Positions 1-14,268 of a stretch of 64,000 nt of DNA are shown here, piece by piece. Within the stretch, counting starts at the first letter, position 1, and every line of letters begins with the position of its first letter. The notes beneath the pieces are model-generated. The model was not told where the DNA came from. It made no database searches and saw nothing but the letters and a program-made list of their open reading frames with translations. The stretch lies in NCBI RefSeq assembly GCF_009914755.1, contig NC_060926.1; one strand, 5' to 3'. Origin of the DNA: the human T2T-CHM13v2.0 reference genome, Homo sapiens. The position numbers were made by a program, and so were the translations under genes.

Positions 1-40
1 GTCTCATTAGATTACTCTTTAATTTTTAAAATTGTTTTAA

Positions 41-323
41 TTTTTTTTTTTTCAAAACATAGTCTGACTGTCACCTAGGCTGGAGTGAAGTGCTGTGATC
101 TCGGCTCACTGCACCCTCGACCTGCCTGAGCTCAGGTGATTCTCCTGCCTCAGCCTCCTGAGTAGCTGGGATTACAGCCCTGTGCCACCACGCCCAGCTA
201 ATTTTTGTATTTTTAGTAAAGACGGGGTTTCGCCATGTTGGCCAGGCTGGTCTCAAACTCCAGGGCTCAAGCAATCTGCCTGCCTCAGCCTCCCAAAGTG
301 CTGGGAACCACCAACACCTGGCC
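41..323 (-). mobile_element. Alu (older J/S type) in left arm; paralogous copy at 9723-10003 (+)
   Basis: Alu consensus blocks with poly-T; both copies share the same internal deletion near the Alu 5' end (gctgggaaccacc). Confidence 0.9.
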
Positions 324-514
324 TGTTTTAAAATTATTTTTAATTTTTTATTATTTTAACTTTTTAATTTTTTTAATTTTTGTTTTTTTTAAATTTTTAA
401 ATATTTATTTTATTCCATTTTTAAAATGTTTAAGTTTTTAAATTTCTTAAAGGCCTTACCAGTAGCATCATGTCGTACTCATCCTCTTCTTGCTATTCTA
501 ATCTTCTCCCTCCC

Positions 515-570
515 TACATATATACACACACACGTACACACACACACGTACACACACACACATGCACGTA
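515..570. repeat. Interrupted (CA)n microsatellite; shorter paralog (TG)n at ~9190-9232
   Basis: tacatatatacacacacacgtacacacacacacgtacacacacacacatgcacgtaca. Confidence 0.9.
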
Positions 571-1659
571 CAGCAACACTCCAGCCCATTGCCTCACAGA
601 TTGCTATGCACCAACAGGCCTAAAATTAAAATAGTAATAGCAATGTAGTCACAAATATAAAATAATATAAAATTATTCTGCCACGAAGATCTTTTTTTTT
701 TTGAGAAAAATACAACTTTTTAGAGCAAAAATATAGGGCAGCAACAGGAAGGCTCATTTTAAGCTGTTACGCTGCGTAGAGCTGCACCTTCACATGGCCT
801 GTGAAAATACCTATTCACTGAATTTGGATTGTAATCAATAATTACCAGCCTAGAAGACCTCTGAAAGTTTGATCATTTTCTTCCCTCTGGGCAGGCAAAT
901 CTTCCCTGCATAGAGACACTGTGAGCTGGAAGGGAGTTCCTTCTCTCAGTGCGTCCTCTGTGCCTGCTTTTCCCATTTGCGTTTTTGAGAGTTCAGAACT
1001 CCAGGAAGGATCATCCTATGCTGGAGATTTCCCCGTGAACGTTTCCTTCTGCACAGAGCAAATCAGGGAGACTTGGCCCCTCTGTTCCGTCTATGGACTC
1101 TAGAGGCGTATCTGTCTTTTTAGTCTGTTAGCCGAGGCTGTTAGACATGTTGGCCTTAGTTCTTACACAGCTTGCAGAGAAAATAAGATTGTTATAGAAC
1201 CAATACTCATGGTCTATGGGTTAATGTAGCATTGGCAAGACTGCCCATGAGGGCAGGCAAGGGATTTACCGTCTGGCAAAATACAAACACCTTAGTCTTT
1301 TGGCTTTCAGTTAACAAATATGACGTCGCATTTGGCCCTATTACAGCTACAGTTAAGTGCACACACATTTCTTTTCTCCCATTATTCGATTTGCACATGC
1401 TCACAAATCCAAAAGTAATGACATACTTGCATTAAAAGATATCTAAATTTTGATGAGTGTTGTAATGAACAGGAAAAATTATTCTATCATCTACAAATCT
1501 TTTCAAACTTGGGTTTTCTTTGCAAGGTCCTTAAGTTTCGCCTGAGTCCAATATTTCTTATGCAGCAGAGACACAATCATTGCCAACTGATCACCATACA
1601 CTGGATTTTCATCCTCAATAAGCCCGAGTGTAAGATCCATGCCTCTGCTTCACACTCAC

Positions 1660-1714
1660 CTGTCTTCAGTCAGTGCTCCTCCTTAGAGGTGGTGAGCCCA
1701 CAGCGATTTATATA
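1660..1714 (-). promoter_or_regulatory. LYG1: TATA promoter + short non-coding first exon + 5' splice site, probably LYG1 exon 1
   Basis: Minus strand reads TATATAAA (1714-1707), then ...GGAGCACTGACTGAAGACAG|GTGAGT with a consensus donor after 1660. Gene identity is inferred only from recalled gene order (LYG1 lies downstream of TXNDC9 on the same strand); no LYG1 coding sequence is in the window. Confidence 0.6.
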
Positions 1715-1994
1715 GAGTCCTGTTCTCTTGTTAAAAGTGTTCATCTCATCCTATTTTGGAGAGATTTATGACATCTCATAAATTATAATAATAATCATAA
1801 TTATTATAAATACTCCGAACTTATATAGGGCCTTTTATTCGAGAATGTCCTGGCATTTTGCAAACATTAACCAATCTGTTTCTTGCCATACCTCAGAAGG
1901 CAGATCCTAGTTGTAGTTTAACTTTGACACATTGAGGTCCAACACTTGTCTTTATTCACATCATTTTCTGGGAATGTGGGTTAGGTAAGAAAAC

Positions 1995-2137
1995 AAGGAA
2001 GGAAGAGAGAGAGAAAGAGAGAGAGAGTGAGAAGGAGAGAGAGAGTGAGAAGGGGAAGGGAGGAAGGGAAGAGGAAGGGAGGAAGGGAAGGAAGAAAGAA
2101 AAGGAAGAAGGAAGGAAGGAAGGGAGGGAGGGAGGGA
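1995..2137. repeat. Purine-rich (GA)n/(GGAA)n low-complexity tract; paralog (CT)n/(TTCC)n at ~7617-7765
   Basis: gagagagaga...ggaagggagg arrays that differ slightly in length between arms. Confidence 0.9.
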
Positions 2138-2201
2138 ATTGAACTTGGTGTGTCAGAAACTCATTATTGGTTTGTATTTCAGGTAAGCAGAGCGCCTAGA
2201 C

Positions 2202-2393
2202 CAGGGGTTGGCAGCTTTTTCTTACAGGCCCAGACAGGTTTTTGGGCTACGTGGTCTTTATAATGCCTCTGACATTGTAGCATGAGAGTGATCATAGATA
2301 ATATTTAAATGAATGGCCAAGACTGTGTTCCAAAAAAAAAACTTTCTTTACTACACAGGTGGTGGCCCTAGGGCCGTAGGTTGCTGGCCCCTG
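2202..2393 (+). mobile_element. MER58A-like hAT-Charlie MITE; paralog at 7364-7552 (-)
   Basis: Terminal inverted repeats caggggttggc ... gctggcccctg; internal ctgtgttccaaaaaaactttctttactacacagg resembles MER58A. Confidence 0.75.
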
Positions 2394-2724
2394 TTCTGAA
2401 CCACCGAGAGATACCAGTTCACATGTCCTCAGTTCAGCAATGTGGGGAGAGATGATCGGCTGGATGATGCTATTTTACAGACACCCAGGACCTACAGCGT
2501 GTTCCAAATGTCTACATCAATAAGTACTTTGAGAGGGTTCATATGAAGTTTCCAGGAAGGATTCTTTCCCAAGTTGTGGAAAGGGTGCATTTCATGACTG
2601 AAAGAGGGAGCCCCCTCCCTCACCACACCCTGTGCCCCAGCTCAGCTGAACAGCTTGATTTTCCCCAAACACAGCGCCATTCTTTGCACTAGGCATTCCT
2701 ACAGGATCTTTCCTTTTTATCTAA

Positions 2725-3260
2725 ACCCTCAGGGACAGGGGCTGTGTCTCATTCGTCTTTATAATACCAGCATGCAACACTCTGCATGATACATATTAGA
2801 CACTCAGTAAAACACGTGGAATCAATGGCTTGCTTATCGGCTGACTGGTATACAGTCTGTTTCTTCTGCATCCCCTGCCTTAGCTCCCTCCCCATACCAC
2901 AACTCAAACACAAGCTCCGTGAGAGCTGTGAATCTGGCTACTTCATTTATAAGACTGAGTCTTCAGTGCCCAGATAACAGCCTGGCACACTGTAAGTGTT
3001 CAGTAAATCTTTGTTGAATCAGTCAATGACTGAAGAATTCCTACAACCTCACCCAGCAAGATTTGGACTGGGCTTCCAATGCTGGGCCCCAGGTTAGACG
3101 TGTGTTCCTTGTGTTTCAAGCAACATGTGGATATTTCTACCATAGCACCTACAGCACTTTGGTTTGTTGTTGTCTTGAGAACAAAAACAAAGGCTTTTTT
3201 CTCCTGTATTCCTTATGGCACATAAGGGGTATTCAGTACATGTTTACGGAATGAGTAAAT
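2725..3260 (+). mobile_element. L2 3'-end remnants (several)
   Basis: Repeated motifs similar to L2 ...cctggcacatagtaggcgctcaataaatatttgttgaatgaatg near 2800, 3000 and 3230. Confidence 0.6.
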
Positions 3261-3350
3261 GAATGATTTAAAGCGTATTTATGACTTTTTGGAAGTCACT
3301 CACTCTGCATCCCCAGTGCAGACATTGAGGGTTAAGATTTTGTTATTCTC

Positions 3351-3645
3351 AGCCGGGCACAGAGCCTCACGTCTGTAATCCCAGCGCTTTGGGAGGCCGA
3401 GGCAGGTGGATCACTTGAGGTCAGGAGTTCGGACCAGCCTGGCCAACATGGCGAAACCCCATCTCTACTAAAAATACAAAAATTATCCAGGCATGGTGGC
3501 ACACACCAGTAATCCCAGCTACTCGGGAGGCTGAGGCAGGAGAATCAGTTGAACCAAGAGGGAGAGGTTGCAGTAAGCCAAGATCATGCCAGTGTACTCC
3601 AGCCTGGGCCACAGAGCAAGCCTCCATCTGAAAAAAAAAAAAAAG
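3351..3645 (+). mobile_element. AluS with target-site duplication
   Basis: Full Alu; TSD aagattttgttattctc / aagattttgtttttctc. Confidence 0.92.
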
Positions 3646-4321
3646 AAGATTTTGTTTTTCTCTACTTGTGACTGAGATGGTGAGACCACAAGGCAGGGCA
3701 CTGTGAGCAAGGGTCCAGATTTGGACACCCAGGGAGTTCCTGAACTTTAACTCTGGGAGGGGAGTGTGAGAACACTGGGTTCCTCTCGGTTGTTGGCAGA
3801 GTTGGGGTAAAAAGAGAACTAATGCACCCATTAAAAACTCTATCCTGACCCCCAAAATGGAACTCATCCATTTTATTTTTTCCACCAAGCTCTAGCACAT
3901 ACCAACAATTAAAAGGTATTACAGTGTGGGGAAATCTGGGGATGCCCAGCTCCACCTACAAAAGCACCCTGTCATCAGCCCAGAGGGCCATGTTAGCATC
4001 CTGGGAGGTTCTCCTGGGCAGCAGCCAGCATGTTGCCTGGCAAAGGCTCCACAGAGACGAAATGGCTTCTCACAAACCCTGCCTCTCTATGATGACTTCC
4101 ACCTCCTCACCTGCTGCACCTGGGTCCCCACCCTAAGAATCCTAGAAGCTGAGGAGGTCGTTCTCCATCCAGCCTCCGGGACACTCCGCAGGCACATGAC
4201 GGTCAGATTTATGTTTTAAAAAGTGTCCCCTGGCTGCTGATTGCATTGGAGGTGAGCCAGAGTGACTCGGGAGACTTCACAGAAGACCAGAAGAGAGATG
4301 ATGGTTGGACTAGAGTGACGG

Positions 4322-5103
4322 GGCTATGGCTTGGCTGTGTCTCCACTGAAATCTCATCTCAAATTGTAGCTTCCATAATTCCCTTGCATTGTGGGAGGGA
4401 CACAGTGGGAGACAATTGAATCATGGAGGCAGTTTCCCCCATACTGTTCTCCTGGTAGTGAATAAGTCTCAAGAGATCTGATGATTTTATAAGAAGAAAC
4501 CCCGGCCGGGCACGGTGGCTCACGCCTGTAATCCCAGCACTTTGGGAGGCCCAGGCAGGCGGATCACGAGCTCAAGAGATAGAGAACATCCTGGCTAACA
4601 CAGTGAAACCCCGTCTCCACTAAAAATACAAAAAAATTAGCCAGGCGTGGTGGGGGCACCTGAGACTTCAGGGGATTGTTGGGAAGGCAAGATTGGTTTT
4701 GAAATGTGAGGACATGAGATTTGGGAGGGGTCAGAAGTGGAATGATATGATTTGGCTCTGTCCCCACCAAAATCTCATCTCAAATTGTAGCTTGCATAAT
4801 TGCCTTGTGTTGTGGGAGGGACCCAGTGGGAGACAATTGAATCATGGAGGCAGTTTCCCCCATACTGTTCTCATGGTAGTGTATAAGTCTCATGAGATCT
4901 GATGATTTTATAAGAGGAAACCCCTTTCACTTGGCTCTCACTCTTCTCTTGTCTGCTGCCATGTGAGACATGCCTTTCACCTTCCGCCATGATTGTGAGG
5001 CCTCCCCAGACACGTGGAACTGTGAATCTGTTAAACCTCTTGCTTTTGTAAATTGCTCAGTCTCAGGTATGTCTTTATCAGCAGCATGAAAGTGGCTAAG
5101 AGA
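4322..5103 (+). mobile_element. Internally deleted THE1 (MaLR) element: partial 5' LTR 4322-4503, Alu 5' part 4504-4662, internal 3' end 4663-4742, full 3' LTR 4743-5103
   Basis: Two copies of the THE1 LTR start (tgatatg..tggct.tgtc.ccac..aaatctcatc); purine tract gggaggggtcagaagtggaa precedes the second LTR; LTR end ...gtctttatcagcagcatgaaa. Confidence 0.88.
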
Positions 5104-5459
5104 AAAAGGAAAGATATTACAGATCTATTTTAGAGGTGGAATTGACAGGACTCAGTTTGGGACAAGACGCCAAGGATGAGAGCAAAGAAGAGGACATAAG
5201 TGCCTGGGAGGATGGTACTAAGTCTGGAATGCTGAAGATGAAAGCACATTTACCAAAGAAGATGAAGTTTTAGGCTGGGTGGAGTGGCTCACGTCTGTGG
5301 TTCCAACACTTTAGGAGGTCAAGGCACTTCAAGACCAGCCTGGGCAACATAGCAACATCCTGTCTCAATTTATGAAAAAGAAAAAGAAAGGATTATGTTT
5401 TAACTCCCATGTAACAAACCTACACGTGTACACCTCAATCTAAAAATGTTTTTAAAGAG

Positions 5460-6495
<1,036 letters not shown>

Positions 6496-6513
6496 TTACA
6501 AAATATATAATAT

Positions 6514-6800
6514 CTTTTTATTTTGAGACGGAGTCTCGCTCTGTCACCCAGGTGGAGTGAGCGTGATCTCAGCTCACTGCAACCTCCGCCTCCTGGGTTC
6601 ACACCATTCTCCTGCCTCAGCCTCCCGAGTAGCTGGGACTACAGTAGCCTGCCACCATGCCCGGCTAATTTTTTGTATTTCTAGTAGAGGCGGGGTTTCA
6701 CCGTGTTAGCCAGGATGGTCTCGATCTACTGACCTCATGATCCGCCGGCCTCAGCCTCCCAAAGTGCTGGGATTACAGGCATGAGCCACCACACCCTGCC
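6514..6800 (-). mobile_element. Alu (Y/Sc-like)
   Basis: ttagccaggatggtctcgatct diagnostic block. Confidence 0.9.
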
Positions 6801-7725
6801 TCATGATTTCTTATAAGTAAAAAACACACAAAAAAGGAGAGACCAGAGAATTAATCCAGCCATCTAAATGGACATTGAACCCACTCAGCATGACAGAGTC
6901 AAGAATAAGACTTTGAGACAAGTGTGAACGTTTTCTTGAAAAAGTGAGGATCCAGGAGGTCTGAAAGGACAAGCCAGGGACATGGTGGCTCATAGCACAA
7001 GTTTCTGAGACACAGCCCCTGTCCCTGAGGGGTTAGATAAAAAGCAAACAGCCTGTAGGAAGGCCTAATGCAAAGAATGGCGCTGTGTTTGGGGAAAATC
7101 AAGCTGCTTAGTTGAGTTGGGGCACAGGGTGTGGTGAGGGAGGGGGCTCCCTCTTTCAGTCGTGAAATGCACCCTTTCCACAACTTGGGAAGGAATCCTT
7201 CCTGGAAACTTCATATGAACCCTCTCAAAGTACTTATCGATGTAGACATTTGGAACATGCTGTAGGTCCTGGGTGTCTGTAAAATAGCATCATCCAGCCG
7301 ATCATCTCTCCCCACATTGCTGAACTGAGGACATGTGAACTGGTATCTCTCGGTGGTTCAGAACAGGGGCCAGCAACCTACGGCCCTAGGGCCACCACCT
7401 GTGTAGTAAAGAAAGTTTTTTTGGAACACAGTCTTGGCCATTCATTTAAATATTATCTATGATCACTCTCATGCTACAATGTCAGAGGCATTATAAAGAC
7501 CACGTAGCCCAAAAACCTGTCTGGGCCTGTAAGAAAAAGCTGCCAACCCCTGGTCTAGGCGCTCTGCTTACCTGAAATACAAACCAATAATGAGTTTCTG
7601 ACACACCAAGTTCAATTCCCTCCCTCCCTCCCTTCCTTCCTTCCTTCCTTCCTTTTTCCTTTTCTTCCTTCCCTTCCTCCCTTCCTCTTCCCTTCCTCCC
7701 TTCCCCTTCTCACTCTCTCTCTCTT

Positions 7726-7756
<31 letters not shown>

Positions 7757-8045
7757 TCCTTCCTTGTTTTCTTACCTAACCCACATTCCCAGAAAATGAT
7801 GTGAATAAAGACAAGTGTTGGACCTCAATGTGTCAAAGTTAAACTACAACTAGGATCTGCCTTCTGAGGTATGGCAAGAAACAAATTGGTTAATGTTTGC
7901 AAAATGCCAGGACATTCTTGAATAAAAGGCCCTATATAAGTTCAAAGTATTTATAATTATTATGATTATTATTATAATTTATGAGATGTCATAAATCTCT
8001 CCAAAATAGGATGAGATGAACACTTTTAACAAGAGAACAGGACTC

Positions 8046-8100
8046 TATATAAATCGCTGTGGGCTCACCACCTCTAAGGAGGAGCACTGACTGAAGACAG
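8046..8100 (+). promoter_or_regulatory. Identical duplicate of the TATA/first-exon/donor module, facing TXNDC9
   Basis: TATATAAA at 8046-8053; GAAGACAG|GTGAGT at 8100/8101; exact reverse complement of 1660-1714. Confidence 0.7.
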
Positions 8101-9329
8101 GTGAGTGTGAAGCAGAGGCATGGATCTTACACTCGGGCTTATTGAGGATGAAAATCCAGTGTATGGTGATCAGTTGGCAATGATTGTGTCTCTGCTGCAT
8201 AAGAAATATTGGACTCAGGCGAAACTTAAGGACCTTGCAAAGAAAACCCAAGTTTGAAAAGATTTGTAGATGATAGAATAATTTTTCCTGTTCATTACAA
8301 CACTCATCAAAATTTAGATATCTTTTAATGCAAGTATGTCATTACTTTTGGATTTGTGAGCATGTGCAAATCGAATAATGGGAGAAAAGAAATGTGTGTG
8401 CACTTAACTGTAGCTGTAATAGGGCCAAATGCGACGTCATATTTGTTAACTGAAAGCCAAAAGACTAAGGTGTTTGTATTTTGCCAGACGGTAAATCCCT
8501 TGCCTGCCCTCATGGGCAGTCTTGCCAATGCTACATTAACCCATAGACCATGAGTATTGGTTCTATAACAGTCTTATTTTCTCTGCAAGCTGTGTAAGAA
8601 CTAAGGCCAACATGTCTAACAGCCTCGGCTAACAGACTAAAAAGACAGATACACCTCTAGAGTCCATAGACGGAACAGAGGGGCCAAGTCTCTCTGATTT
8701 GCTCTTTGTGCAGAAGGAAACATTCATGGGGAAATCTCCAGCATAGGATGATCCTTCCTGGAGTTCTGAACTCTCAAAAACGCAAATGGGAAAAGCAGGC
8801 ACAGAGGACGCACTGAGAGAAGGAACTCCCTTCCAGCTCACAGTGTCTCTATGCAGGGAAGATTTGCCTGCCCAGAGGGAAGAAAATGATCAAACTTTCA
8901 GAGGTCTTCTAGGCTGGTAATTATTGATTACAATCCAAATTCAGTGAATAGGTATTTTCACAGGCCATGTGAAGGTGCAGCTCTACACAGCATAACAGCT
9001 TAAAATGAGCCTTCCTGTTGCTGCCCTATATTTTTGCTCTAAAAAGTTGTATTTTTCTCAAGAAAACATGATCTTAGTGGCAGAATAATTTTATATTATT
9101 TTATATTTGTGACTACACTGCTATTACTATTTTAATTTTAGGCCTGTTGGTGCATAGCAATCTGTGAGGCAATGGGCTGGAATGTTGCTGTACATGCATG
9201 TGTGTGTGTGTGTGTACGTGTGTGTGTGTATGTAGGGAGGGAGAAGATTAGAATAACAAGAGGAGGATGAGTACGATGTGATTCAACTGGAAAGGCCTTT
9301 AACAAATTTAAAAATTTAAACATTTTTAA

Positions 9330-9622
<293 letters not shown>

Positions 9623-10085
9623 AAAGTAAAATAAATATTAAAAAAATTTAAAAACATTAAAACAAAAATTTTAAAAAATTAAAAAGTACAAATAATAAAA
9701 AATTAAAAATAGCTTTAAAATAGGCCTGGTGCTGGTGGTTCCCAGCACTTTGGGAGGCTGAGGCAGGTGGATTGCTTGAGCCCTAGAGTTTGAGACCAGC
9801 CTGGCCCGCATGACGAAACCCCGTCTTTACTAAAAATACAAAAATTAGCTGGGCGTGGTGGCACACGATTGTAATCCCAGCTACTCAGGAAGCTGAGGCA
9901 GGAGGATCACCTGAGCTCAGGCAGGTCGAGGGTGGAGTGAACCGAGATCATGTCACTTCACTCCAGTCTGGGTGACAGTGAGACTCTGTCTCGAAAAAAA
10001 AAATTAAAACAATTTTAAAAATTAAAGAGTAATCTAATGAGACATTCTTACAGGCTTATAATGGTGAGATGATTCCACAATTTTG

Positions 10086-11088
<1,003 letters not shown>

Positions 11089-11134
11089 AGAGCGGTGGTT
11101 TTCAATGGCTGCTCATTAGAATGATTGGAATCAC

Positions 11135-11470
11135 TAATGTGATTCCAGCCTACTCCCTGGAACCTATGTACATGTTAAGTTACATGGCAGAGGAGACTCC
11201 AGTTAGTAGATGGAATTAAGGTTCCTCATCATCTGACCTTAAAAGAGATAGGATATCCTGAATTATCAAGGTGGGCCCTTAAATGTGGAAGATGGAGGCA
11301 GAAGAGTCAGTTTCACAGAGATGGAACCAGCTCTTGCTGCCTTTGAAGATAGAGGGAAGGGGCCAGGCGCTAGGGACTCTTGTCTCTAAAAATAAATAAA
11401 TTAAAAAAAATAAACTTACATTGTTTTAAGCCACCAACATTGTGGTAATTTTTACAGCAGCAGTGGGCAA
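11135..11470 (+). mobile_element. MLT1-type MaLR LTR remnant
   Basis: gatggaattaaggtt...ctgaccttaaaa and ataaacttacattgttttaagccacc...acagcagcagtgggcaac. Confidence 0.7.
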
Positions 11471-11652
11471 CGCAGCCACATTTATGAACCACTGCAGGAG
11501 GGGTTCTGCTGCCTCTTGGCCATCGTTTGCCAAAATCTTTTCTCCGTTCCTTCCTGAGAGGCAAAGGCTAGTCCCAGCTGTTTCCAGTCTTCTTGATCAG
11601 AATTTTTCCCTTTACTTAAGAGATTCACCCTGCTTTAGTTGTAATTTGTGTC

Positions 11653-14268
11653 TTTTTTTTTTAAGAGACAGGATCTCCCTCTGTTGTTCAGGCTGGAGTG
11701 CAGTGGCACAATCATAGTTCACTGTAACCTCAAACTCCTGGGCTCCAGTGAACCTCCCATCTCAGTCTCCCCAGTAGCTGGGACTACAGGTGTGTGCCAC
11801 CACACTGGGCTAATGTTTAAATTTTGTTTTCCAACTGGTCTTCTGACACAGGAGAATTTTTTTATCTTTTGTGGAGATGGGGTCTTCCTATGTGGCCCAG
11901 GCTGGTCCCCCTGCCTCCTTTTTTTTGAGGCAGGGTCTCTCTCTGTCTTCCAGACTGGTTTGCAATGGTGTGATCACAGCTCACTGCAGCCACAAACTCC
12001 TGGGATCAAGTGATCCTCCCACCTCAGCCTCTCAACTAACTAGAATTACAAGTGCGTGCCACCATGCCCGGTTAATTTTTAAATATTTTGTAGAGATGGT
12101 GGGGGAGGGGGTCTCACTATGTTGCCCAGGCTGGTCTCGAACTCCTGGGCTGAAGTGATCCTCGGCTTTGACCTCCCAAAGACGAGATTACAGGCATGAA
12201 CCACCACACCCAGCCCTCAGGCTGGTCTTGAACTCCTGGCCTCAAGCCGTCCTCTATCCTTGGCCTTCCAGGCATGAGCCACCATGCCCAGCCCTCAGGC
12301 TGGTCTCGAACTCCTGGCCTCAAGCCATCCTCTGTCCTTGACTTCCCAATCCCCTGGGATTACAGGCATGAGCCAGCATGCCCAGCCTGATTTTTGTCTT
12401 TATGATCAGATCCTTATTGTTGCTATGCAATTTAAAACTTAGAAAACCATAGTTTTAAGTAACAAAGTTTTATTATATTAGCCCAAGGATGCTAATGACA
12501 AGCTCAAAATTATTTGTCAGTTGGTTTAAAAATACATGAAAAGAGTTAAGCATTTATATCCTGTATAATAAAAAAGGAAAAATAATAATAATACACATTT
12601 AATCAGACAGTTTTATGAAGGCCATAAGTTGTTTGTTTGGATGAACCTGGGAGGCTGAGGGGGCTCAGGCCCCTCAGAGAAGGGGCAGAAAGTAGGGATG
12701 GAAGACCCTGGCAGTCATCTCTAAGGGAAGGGAAGCCCCTAAAGGGGCCAGCCCTAGCAAAGAAATAGCAGGAAGAGCCTTGGTTCCCTCTCACCTCTTC
12801 AACCACTCTCCACTGACCAAGCCCACACCCCTTATTCTGTGGACATTTTCCCACTAAAATATTTCACTTGGCACTTTGGGAGGCTGAGGTGAGTGAGTTA
12901 CTTGAGGTCAGGAGTTCAAGACCAGCTTGGCAAATATGGTGAAACCCCGTCCCTACTAAAAATACGAAAAATTAGCTGGGCGTGATGGTACATGCTTGTA
13001 CTCCCAGCTACTGGGGAGGCTGAGGCAGGATAATTGCTCGAACCCGGGAGGTGGAGGTTGCAGTGAGCCAAAATCGCACCACTGCACTACAGCCTGGGCA
13101 ACAGAATGAGACTCCGTCTCAAAAAAAAAAAAAAAAAGAAAGAAAATATTTTCATATGTACCATCTGCACAATAGAACACTTTGCATTTATTAGAGAGGT
13201 GGCACTACTGTGATGACATAAGAAAATGTGCTGGCTGTACAGGTAAATGGGAAAAAAACAAGTTGCAAAATAAAATGTACTCAGTGACCCCATTTTAACA
13301 AAGACAAATGTTAGTGTATGTCTAGAAAATAAAAATTTGGGAGAAATGCATCAAATCTTGAAAGAAGTTATCTGTGGAGATGAGACTAGAGAACATGCTT
13401 ATTTTACATATTTCATATTTCCTTAATGATTGACATTGTATGCCTTATTGCTTTCATAATCAGAAAAAATAATTGTATAATTAATGGTAAAAACTGCCAA
13501 CCAAGGCTGGGCACGGTGGCTCATGCCTGTAATCCCAGCCCTTTGGGAGGCCGAGGCAGGAGGATCACCTGAGGTCAGGAGTTTGAGACCAGACTGACCA
13601 ACATGGAGAAACCCCATCTCTATTAAAAACACAAAATTAGCCGGGTGTGGTGACGCATGCCTGTAATGACAGCTACTCGGGAGGCTGAGGCAGGTGAATT
13701 GCTTCAACCCAGGAGGCGGAGGTTACATTGAGCTGAGATGGCACCATTGCACTCCAGCCTGGACAACAAGAGCGAAACTCTGTCTCAAAAAAACAAACAA
13801 AAACAACAACAACAACAATAAAACAAACAAAACTGCCAACCAAGTCTTTTTTCTTCTTCTATTTTTTAATTGAAATAGAGACAGAGTCTTGCTTTGTTGG
13901 CCAGGTTGGTCTTGAGCTCTCGGCCTCAAGTAATCCTCTCACCTTGGCCTCCCAAAGTGCTAAGATTACTGGTAATCACGCCTGGCCTAATCCAGTCTTT
14001 CCCCCTACTTTTCCCTAGACATTTAGAATATGGTGATATATAGTGATAGGGTTATAAAAGTCAGTCATTTTAAATTGTATCCCTAAATAAATGCCTGTAA
14101 TCAAGACCATCTTGTGCTGGGTGCAGTGGTACATGCCTGTAGTCCTAGCTACTCAGGAAGCTGAGGTGGGAGGATCACTTAAGCCCAGGAGTTTGAGGTT
14201 ATGGTGAGCTATGACCACCACTGCACTCCAGCTTGGGCAACAGAGTAAGACCTGTCTCTTAAAAAAAA
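11653..14268. mobile_element. Alu cluster (AluJ pieces 11653-12387 -, 12872-13148 +, 13505-13830 +, 13860-13988 -, 14116-14268 +)
   Basis: Alu consensus blocks and A/T tails. Confidence 0.85.

What the first reader, a model, noticed from the sequence alone, without database searches (positions are those of the whole stretch)
8046..8110. Orphan duplicate promoter/first exon aimed antisense into TXNDC9
Seen: a perfect copy of the TATA-exon-donor module on the plus strand, with about 1 kb of shared upstream sequence and no downstream coding exon recognisable. Inference: it should fire in the same cells as the LYG1-side copy and produce a spliced lncRNA converging on the TXNDC9 3' end, or act as an enhancer-competing decoy. 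Multi-mapping of CAGE/ChIP reads would hide it.
Basis: partly seen in the sequence, partly recalled or inferred. Interest (0 to 1): 0.7.

Follow-up and report, generated by a model that had tools for sequence, protein, structure and literature searches.

The report
Inverted duplicate of LYG1 gene start
The exact second copy of the LYG1 promoter and first exon is real, but it is one piece of an already catalogued 3-kb inverted duplication whose centre is kept identical by copy-correction between the two arms, and nothing yet shows that the orphan copy makes an RNA.

Summary
Window 8046-8110 (+) is an exact reverse complement of 1650-1714. It lies in an inverted segmental duplication. Arm 1 runs from about -266 (outside the window) to 2751, arm 2 from 7006 to 10275, and the spacer is 4254 bp. 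The unique part has only these two copies in the whole assembly.

The pair is already in print as candidate inversion 'mos-02-99199124-99409654', source 'Inverted SD pair'. It was genotyped in 54 of 54 samples and all carried one orientation (PMC13629690 Tables S1 and S3).

Arm ends differ by about 7% and the centre by 0.8%. The centre holds mismatch-free tracts of 612 and 397 bp; 0 of 20000 permutations reach 612. The perfect module therefore most likely reflects recent arm-to-arm gene conversion, not selection. Arm 1 looks parental.

The orphan copy keeps both TATA-like motifs, the exon and a consensus donor. No LYG1 coding exon follows it. The supplied RefSeq table has no plus-strand gene there. 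Six literature searches found nothing on it.

Whether the orphan copy fires cannot be tested here. Ordinary structure, low interest.

The parts
1..2751 (.). Arm 1 of the inverted duplication. It continues left of the window to about -266 and holds LYG1 exon 1, about 0.95 kb of upstream sequence and about 1.9 kb of intron 1. Probably the parental copy.
   Evidence: A full Alu (-458..-158) runs through the outer boundary.
2752..7005 (.). Unique 4254-bp spacer between the arms. It holds the LYG1 alternative upstream exons (3304-3438, 3507-3627, 5254-5389, minus strand) and the 3' end of the TXNDC9 alternative last exon.
   Evidence: Sharp loss of homology at 2751/2752 and 7006/7005. Exons are from the supplied RefSeq table.
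7006..10275 (.). Arm 2 of the inverted duplication, the derived copy. Corresponds to hg38 chr2:99306393-99309654 in the published catalogue.
   Evidence: PMC13629690 Table S1 row 324.
7953..8100 (+). Orphan copy of LYG1 exon 1 (NM_174898.3 exon 1660-1807). One difference from the original, at 7958.
   Evidence: Coordinate mapping through the alignment.
8046..8110 (+). Exact copy of 1650-1714 (-).
8101..8106 (+). 5' splice donor GTGAGT after exon end ...GACAG. Identical to the LYG1 exon 1 donor.
   Evidence: The match to the consensus MAG|GTRAGT is recalled, not from a call.
8008..8009 (+). AG that mirrors the acceptor of the LYG1 internal exon form 1660-1750, so that 8010-8100 could also act as an internal exon.
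   Evidence: Exon form is from the supplied RefSeq table.
7932..7939 (+). CTATATAA, the upstream TATA-like motif, 14-21 nt before the RefSeq-equivalent TSS at 7953. Mirror copy at 1821-1828 (-).
8045..8052 (+). Mirror copy at 1708-1715 (-).
7959..8570 (.). 612-bp tract with no mismatch to arm 1 (1190-1801). Read as a recent gene-conversion tract. Reads of 27 to 250 nt that lie wholly within it cannot be assigned to one arm.
7259..7656 (.). Second mismatch-free tract: 397 aligned bases with one 3-bp indel, paired with arm 1 2099-2498.
7619..7756 (+). CT-rich polypyrimidine microsatellite block about 200-330 bp upstream of the exon copy. Mirrored at 2004-2135. The arms differ here by small indels.
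9340..9622 (-). Alu present only in arm 2, flanked by a 12-bp target-site duplication (9328-9339 and 9623-9634, 11 of 12 identical). It inserted after the duplication and is antisense to a plus-strand transcript.
6798..7398 (-). TXNDC9 alternative last exon. Its acceptor and first 393 nt lie in arm 2, that is in duplicated LYG1-upstream sequence.
   Evidence: Supplied RefSeq table. CT at 7399-7400 (+) is AG on the minus strand.
1660..1807 (-). The genuine LYG1 exon 1 (non-coding).
   Evidence: Supplied RefSeq table.

Best explanation
The module is part of an old inverted partial duplication of the 5' end of LYG1. The duplicated piece holds about 0.95 kb of upstream sequence, non-coding exon 1 and about 1.9 kb of intron 1. 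It was copied head-to-head 4.25 kb upstream of the original.

The arm ends have drifted apart by about 7%. The central 1.8 kb has been repeatedly homogenised by non-allelic (arm-to-arm) gene conversion without crossover. This is why the promoter, exon and donor copy is letter-perfect today.

The orphan copy is a by-product of this history. It is a structurally intact, CpG-poor, TATA-type promoter with a first exon and a strong donor, but it has no LYG1 exon to splice to. If it fires at all, it should give a non-coding RNA of low abundance, either unspliced and ended at the A-rich sites from 9330 onwards, or spliced into Alu-derived cryptic exons.

Shown: the structure, the copy number, the identity gradient, the Alu insertion, the lack of downstream LYG1 exons, and the lack of inversion polymorphism in 54 samples. 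Inferred: gene conversion as the cause, arm 1 as the parent, the age, and the low output.
For: Structure: inverted arms 410-2751 / 9339-7006 at 96.9% and -119..412 / 10165-9627 at 90.8%. The global alignment has 97 mismatches in 2965 aligned columns.

Copy number: in the whole 3.1-Gb assembly the non-Alu part of arm 2 matches only itself and arm 1.

In print: PMC13629690 Table S1 lists IR1 at 3014 bp, IR2 at 3262 bp, an inverted region of 4255 bp, type SD, source 'Inverted SD pair'. These equal my boundaries after a constant offset. Table S3 gives genotyping success 1, with CHM13 O1 and the 53 other samples O1/O1.

Identity gradient (percent mismatch):
- -266..42: 6.25%
- 43-387: 8.7%
- 413-700: 7.3%
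- 701-1189: 1.4%
- 1190-1801: 0 of 612
- 1802-2098: 2.7%
- 2099-2498: 0 of 397
- 2499-2751: 5.5%

K2P distance is 0.074 for the flanks and 0.0084 for the centre. A 612-bp mismatch-free run was reached in 0 of 20000 permutations, both for the whole arms and for the inner block alone.

The promoter-proximal stretch is less alike than the intron piece, which argues against selection on the promoter as the cause.

Arm 1 as parent: a full Alu (-458..-158) crosses the outer boundary in arm 1, while arm 2 has only a fragment ending at 10275.

Insertion after the duplication: the Alu at 9340-9622 has a target-site duplication and is present in arm 2 only.

No LYG1 gene-body copy lies downstream. The supplied RefSeq table has no plus-strand model.
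Against: Gene conversion is inferred from one haplotype without an outgroup. No primate genome was available here, so concerted evolution of the arms was not shown.

The promoter copy is almost intact, with five differences from 7757 to 8110. The donor is at consensus, and no AATAAA or ATTAAA occurs on the plus strand for 1.2 kb after it. The sequence therefore does not exclude activity, and low output is a guess.

Lack of a RefSeq model is weak evidence, because reads from the exon copy multi-map.

The flanks are largely Alu and low-complexity sequence, so their higher divergence partly reflects faster-mutating sequence. Non-CpG K2P is still 0.063 against 0.0046.
Confidence: 0.72

Rival explanations
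1. One reading: the orphan promoter is active in LYG1-expressing cells. It either makes a spliced lncRNA that runs on the plus strand towards the TXNDC9 3' end, or it competes with LYG1 for shared enhancers as a decoy. It has been overlooked because reads multi-map.
For: Core elements are kept: both CTATATAA motifs, the exon, and donor CAG|GTGAGT. There are only five differences from 7757 to 8110. The 1040 bp of upstream sequence is shared. No poly(A) hexamer occurs at 8101-9329 (+). The arm 2-only antisense Alu offers AG acceptors at 9376-9377 and 9388-9389 and a GT at 9476, which the true LYG1 intron lacks. Reads inside 7959-8570 are ambiguous.
Against: There is no RNA evidence of any kind. 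The supplied RefSeq table has no plus-strand gene. Six literature searches found nothing. A junction read into unique sequence right of 10275 would map uniquely and should have been picked up by annotation pipelines if it were common. A crude acceptor scan finds no strong site before 11954. The orphan has lost two of LYG1's three CpGs near the upstream TATA. It lies inside a TXNDC9 alternative intron that is transcribed from the other strand.
Confidence: 0.18
2. The inverted repeat is a site of recurrent NAHR inversion. Flipping the 4.25-kb spacer would swap which promoter copy drives LYG1 and would redirect the LYG1 upstream exons towards the orphan side.
For: The arms are about 3 kb long with 612- and 397-bp perfect tracts, which is ample substrate. 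The pair was selected as an inversion candidate by PMC13629690.
Against: It was genotyped with success 1 in 54 of 54 samples. All carried orientation O1, no minor allele was seen, and no additional structural variant is listed for the region (the region name occurs only in Tables S1 and S3).
Confidence: 0.04
3. The arms act at the RNA level. A minus-strand read-through transcript from TXNDC9 into LYG1 contains both arms and would fold into a hairpin of more than 2 kb. That hairpin could be an ADAR or Dicer substrate, or a splicing-looping element.
For: A TXNDC9-LYG1 read-through chimera is named for HeLa cells in PMC7437936 (passages). The arms are 97% complementary with perfect stems of 612 and 397 nt.
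Against: Only one paper names the chimera, and it gives no junctions in the passages read. The arms would be intronic and short-lived. Neither editing nor small-RNA data were seen.
Confidence: 0.08
4. Assembly artefact: a false duplication in T2T-CHM13.
For: None found.
Against: The same arms and spacer lengths are given for hg38 (3014, 3262 and 4255 bp). Nanopore reads from 54 samples were genotyped across both breakpoints. The arms differ by 97 substitutions and an Alu insertion.
Confidence: 0.01

Closest known systems
Inverted segmental-duplication pairs screened as candidate NAHR inversions (Moreira-Pinhal et al. 2026, PMC13629690)
   Same: It is literally one of the 612 catalogued regions: arms over 1 kb and over 90% identical, inverted, less than 250 kb apart.
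   Different: Unlike the 155 regions where that paper's abstract reports both orientations, this one was monomorphic in 54 samples. In the parts read, the paper does not say that the arms carry a gene's promoter and first exon.
Sex-chromosome palindromes kept alike by arm-to-arm gene conversion (e.g. PMC8981503; search listing and start of abstract only)
   Same: Inverted arms around a unique spacer. The central arm identity is far above that of the arm ends, as expected from intrachromosomal gene conversion.
   Different: It is autosomal and tiny (3-kb arms). Overall identity is 96.7%, not above 99%. Only the central 1.8 kb is homogenised. The arms hold no coding genes.
Incomplete (5'-end) gene duplicates in segmental duplications that donate a promoter and first exons to new transcripts (e.g. 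HYDIN2, PMC5345166; search listing and start of abstract only)
   Same: The promoter and first exon with its donor were duplicated without the rest of the gene.
   Different: No transcript from the copy is known. The exon is non-coding. The copy is local and inverted, not dispersed.
Divergent (bidirectional) promoter pairs
   Same: Two promoters face away from each other.
   Different: The starts are 6.1 kb apart (1807 and 7953), not under 1 kb, and they are duplicates of each other, not one shared nucleosome-free region.

Membership tests
Segmental duplication (UCSC definition as quoted in PMC13629690 Methods) | At least 1 kb long and at least 90% identical | tested here: met
   Arms are about 3.0 and 3.27 kb, with 96.7% identity over 2965 aligned columns. 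Listed as type SD.
Segmental duplication (UCSC definition as quoted in PMC13629690 Methods) | Not made up entirely of transposable elements or simple repeats | tested here: met
   Bases 1-2334 of the query (7006-9339) match only the two arms genome-wide, apart from three weak 34-39-nt hits at query 2190-2228. The Alu-like hits are confined to query 2313-3038.
Polymorphic inversion mediated by inverted repeats | Inverted repeats at both breakpoints | tested here: met
Polymorphic inversion mediated by inverted repeats | Both orientations present in the population | tested here: not met
   0 of 54 samples carry the second orientation (PMC13629690 Table S3). This is a published test that I read, not one I ran.
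Palindrome with arm-to-arm gene conversion | Tracts of identity far longer than the arms' background divergence allows | tested here: met
   Mismatch-free runs of 612 and 397 bp. 0 of 20000 permutations reach 612.
Palindrome with arm-to-arm gene conversion | Arms of one species closer to each other than to the orthologous arms of related species (concerted evolution) | not testable with these tools
Active partial gene duplicate (orphan promoter that makes a new transcript) | Promoter, first exon and splice donor intact | tested here: met
Active partial gene duplicate (orphan promoter that makes a new transcript) | A transcript that starts at the copy | not testable with these tools
   No expression data are on hand. 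There is no plus-strand model in the supplied RefSeq table and no paper was found.

The most novel reading that the evidence does not exclude
The orphan copy is a live, tissue-specific promoter (kidney, liver or testis type, like LYG1) whose RNA has escaped annotation because its first 150-600 nt are identical to LYG1. Its transcript would use the consensus donor at 8100|8101 and splice into exonised antisense Alus that exist only on this side, for example the arm 2-only Alu at 9340-9622. It would run antisense through the TXNDC9 alternative last intron towards the TXNDC9 3' end. That would couple TXNDC9 isoform choice or level to LYG1-type regulation, while gene conversion keeps the two promoters co-regulated.
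Probability: 0.15. Interest if true: 0.45.

Novelty: new member of a known kind. Interest (0 to 1): 0.22.

Why it matters
If the orphan start is silent, this is one more small inverted segmental duplication. Its only lessons are practical: short reads, CAGE tags and ChIP reads over LYG1 exon 1 and the first 470 bp of intron 1 cannot be assigned to one copy, and a perfect copy in such a structure is not evidence of function.

It is also a clean small example of gene conversion without detectable inversion. There are 612- and 397-bp perfect tracts, yet 0 of 54 samples are inverted.

If the orphan start is active, it would be a case of a promoter duplicate kept co-regulated by conversion and feeding antisense transcription into a neighbouring housekeeping gene. 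That is of moderate interest only.

Tried and rejected
- Polymorphic inversion: I suspected one from the anatomy and then found the published genotypes. All 54 samples show one orientation. The Aguado 2014 table (PMC3961182) holds only one chr2 inversion, at 241 Mb, which is not this locus.
- Structured RNA: an Rfam scan of 1-12000 at gathering thresholds gave 0 matches.
- Hidden LYG1 exon in the part of arm 1 outside the window: a stop-to-stop ORF listing of L010 3000-6000 gave only Alu-like and low-complexity translations in the last 266 bases. This is a weak test, and exon 2 itself was not located.
- Literature: LYG1+TXNDC9+inversion gave 13 papers, none on this structure. LYG1+HsInv gave 0. 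LYG1 with segmental duplication, gene conversion or promoter gave no paper holding LYG1 among the 20 listed of 541. 'TXNDC9-LYG1' gave 1 paper. Six LYG1 promoter, antisense and locus phrases gave 0. TXNDC9, LYG1, lncRNA and antisense gave 8 papers, none relevant by title or abstract.
- GC-biased conversion or differential CpG decay between arms: arm 1 strong with arm 2 weak 46, against 35 the other way (26 against 14 in the inner block). CpG kept only in arm 1 13, only in arm 2 8. The numbers are too small to conclude anything.
- Acceptor prediction: the scan is a home-made pyrimidine-content filter. It gives leads for primer design and is not evidence.

Full report
**1. The observation**

Window 8046-8110 on the plus strand has one other exact match in the window, the reverse complement at 1650-1714. 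By the supplied RefSeq table, LYG1 exon 1 (NM_174898.3) is 1660-1807 on the minus strand. Through the alignment this maps to 7953-8100 on the plus strand.

The exon copy ends ...GACAG and is followed by GTGAGT at 8101-8106. The homology reaches 1040 bp upstream of the module, to 7006.

**2. What it is part of**

The repeat search and BLAST show one large inverted repeat: 410-2751 pairs with 9339-7006 at 96.9%, and 1-412 pairs with 10043-9627 at 90.5%.

The left arm was cut by the window edge. The window's own assembly could be searched, and 1.5 kb more on the left showed that the homology continues to about -266 paired with 10275.

The anatomy is therefore:
- arm 1: about -266 to 2751
- spacer: 2752-7005 (4254 bp)
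- arm 2: 7006-10275

The inner boundary is sharp to the base. Across the whole 3.1-Gb assembly the non-Alu part of arm 2 matches only itself and arm 1. All other hits fall on its Alu-like parts, apart from three weak 34-39-nt matches.

**3. It is already catalogued**

Moreira-Pinhal et al. 2026 (PMC13629690) assembled 612 candidate inversions. Of these, 319 were pairs of inverted segmental duplications taken from the UCSC hg38 track. I read the outline and abstract, sections 4 and 13, and two searches of the Supplemental Tables.

Table S1 row 324 gives region 'mos-02-99199124-99409654': IR1 chr2:99299124-99302137 (3014 bp), IR2 99306393-99309654 (3262 bp), inverted region 4255 bp, type SD, source 'Inverted SD pair'. 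With a constant offset of 458,613-458,614 bases between the assemblies, these are window -262..2751 and 7006..10267, which are my arms.

Table S3 row 323 gives genotyping success 1, no minor allele, CHM13 O1, and O1/O1 in all 53 other samples. The region name does not occur in the table of additional structural variants.

So the structure is real and is the same in hg38 and CHM13. My own first idea, a polymorphic NAHR inversion, has been tested in print and not found.

**4. Why the module is perfect**

The global alignment has 97 mismatches in 2965 aligned columns, and they are very unevenly spread:

| Arm 1 coordinates | Mismatch |
|---|---|
| -266..42 | 6.25% |
| 43-387 | 8.7% |
| 413-700 | 7.3% |
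| 701-1189 | 1.4% |
| 1190-1801 | 0 of 612 |
| 1802-2098 | 2.7% |
| 2099-2498 | 0 of 397 |
| 2499-2751 | 5.5% |

K2P distance is 0.074 for the pooled flanks (0.063 without CpG sites) and 0.0084 for the centre (0.0046 without CpG sites). A 612-bp mismatch-free run was reached in 0 of 20000 random placements of the same number of mismatches. This held for the whole arms and for the inner block alone.

The standard explanation for old, diverged ends around a near-identical centre with long perfect tracts is non-allelic gene conversion between the arms. Selection is a poor alternative. The perfect tracts are 470 bp of intron plus the exon, and a distal upstream stretch. The promoter-proximal 300 bp, where constraint would be expected, is the least alike part of the centre.

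This is an inference from one haplotype. No primate genome was available to show concerted evolution.

**5. Direction and age**

At the outer boundary, arm 1 carries a full-length Alu (-458..-158) that runs straight through the point where homology starts at -266. Arm 2 carries only the matching fragment, which ends at 10275 against unrelated sequence. That fits arm 1 as the parent and arm 2 as the copy, as does the fact that arm 1 is joined to the rest of LYG1.

An Alu at 9340-9622 is present only in arm 2. It is flanked by a 12-bp target-site duplication (9328-9339 and 9623-9634, 11 of 12 identical), while arm 1 holds one copy of the site. So this Alu inserted after the duplication.

Another Alu (43-387, paired with 10003-9659) is shared by both arms, so the duplication is later than that insertion.

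The flank divergence of 6-7% is about the human-macaque level. That figure is recalled, not from a call. It suggests an age of some tens of millions of years, if the flanks escaped conversion.

**6. The orphan gene start as a machine**

From 7757 to 8110 the two arms differ at 7884, 7919, 7944-7945 and 7958, and further differences lie in the CT-rich repeat upstream. Two of these differences remove CpGs that the LYG1 copy keeps.

Both copies are CpG-poor. CpG observed/expected is 0.06 for the orphan and 0.16 for LYG1, against 0.85 at the TXNDC9/EIF5B island.

There are two CTATATAA motifs per arm. The upstream one, at 7932-7939, fits the RefSeq start equivalent at 7953. If it is used, it would give an exon of only about 25 nt.

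The AG at 8008-8009 mirrors the acceptor of the LYG1 internal exon form 1660-1750.

Downstream on the plus strand:
- No AATAAA or ATTAAA occurs from 8101 to 9329, then ten occur between 9330 and 10131.
- The arm 2-only Alu is antisense to such a transcript. It offers AGs at 9376-9377 and 9388-9389 and a GT at 9476. That antisense Alus exonise in this way is recalled knowledge.
- A crude pyrimidine-tract filter finds nothing before 11954, and its best site is 14019.
- No low-copy match to 16 kb of LYG1 gene body exists anywhere in window 2752-64000, so any product is non-coding with respect to LYG1.

**7. What cannot be decided here**

No expression, CAGE or chromatin data are within reach. The supplied RefSeq table lists no plus-strand gene between LYG1 and EIF5B, and six full-text searches found no paper about a LYG1 promoter, antisense RNA or duplicate. 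The supplements of other papers were not searched.

All reads of 27 to 250 nt that start at or after 7959 and end by 8570 are identical in both arms. A tag that starts at 7953 would carry the discriminating base at 7958. A junction into unique sequence would also map uniquely, which makes a common spliced product less likely to have been missed.

I put about 0.15-0.2 on a real, stable transcript from the orphan.

**8. Verdict**

This is a true and exact duplicate, correctly seen. It belongs to a known, catalogued inverted segmental duplication that is monomorphic in orientation. Its perfection is best read as gene conversion.

It is a new member of a known kind, namely a partial 5' gene duplicate in a small palindrome-like structure. 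Interest is low unless RNA evidence appears.

Noticed in passing
window 6798-7398 (-), mirror at 2357-2751 (+): The TXNDC9 alternative last exon takes its acceptor (AG on the minus strand at 7400-7399) and its first 393 nt from arm 2, that is from duplicated LYG1-upstream sequence. So the duplication gave TXNDC9 a new terminal exon. The mirror acceptor in arm 1 (AG at 2357-2358, + strand) has no annotated use.
   Followed up: partly
window 3304-3438 and 3507-3627 (-): Two LYG1 alternative upstream exons lie within an Alu-like element (about 3351-3650, poly-A on the + strand, hence antisense to LYG1). They look like Alu-derived exons.
   Followed up: partly
window 2004-2135 and 7619-7756: Long polypurine/polypyrimidine microsatellite blocks ((GGAA)n/(AG)n and their complement) lie about 200-330 bp upstream of the exon in both arms. 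They differ between arms only by small indels. Such tracts can form triplex DNA (recalled).
   Followed up: no
window 1-2751 with 7006-10275, minus-strand RNA: A TXNDC9-LYG1 read-through RNA (named for HeLa cells in PMC7437936) would contain both arms. It could fold into a hairpin of more than 2 kb, with perfect stems of 612 and 397 nt around a 4.25-kb loop.
   Followed up: no
window 4325-4503 and 4746-4924: Two direct copies (92% by the repeat finder, 89% over a 221-column alignment) of a dispersed-repeat-like sequence in the spacer, separated by an Alu that starts at 4504.
   Followed up: partly
window 12188-12343: Tandem duplication of a 78-nt piece inside an Alu (1.9 copies, 91% matches).
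   Followed up: no
window 524-562 and 9204-9230: A short (AC)n/(GT)n repeat inside the arms differs in length between them (10-bp gap at 540-549).
   Followed up: no
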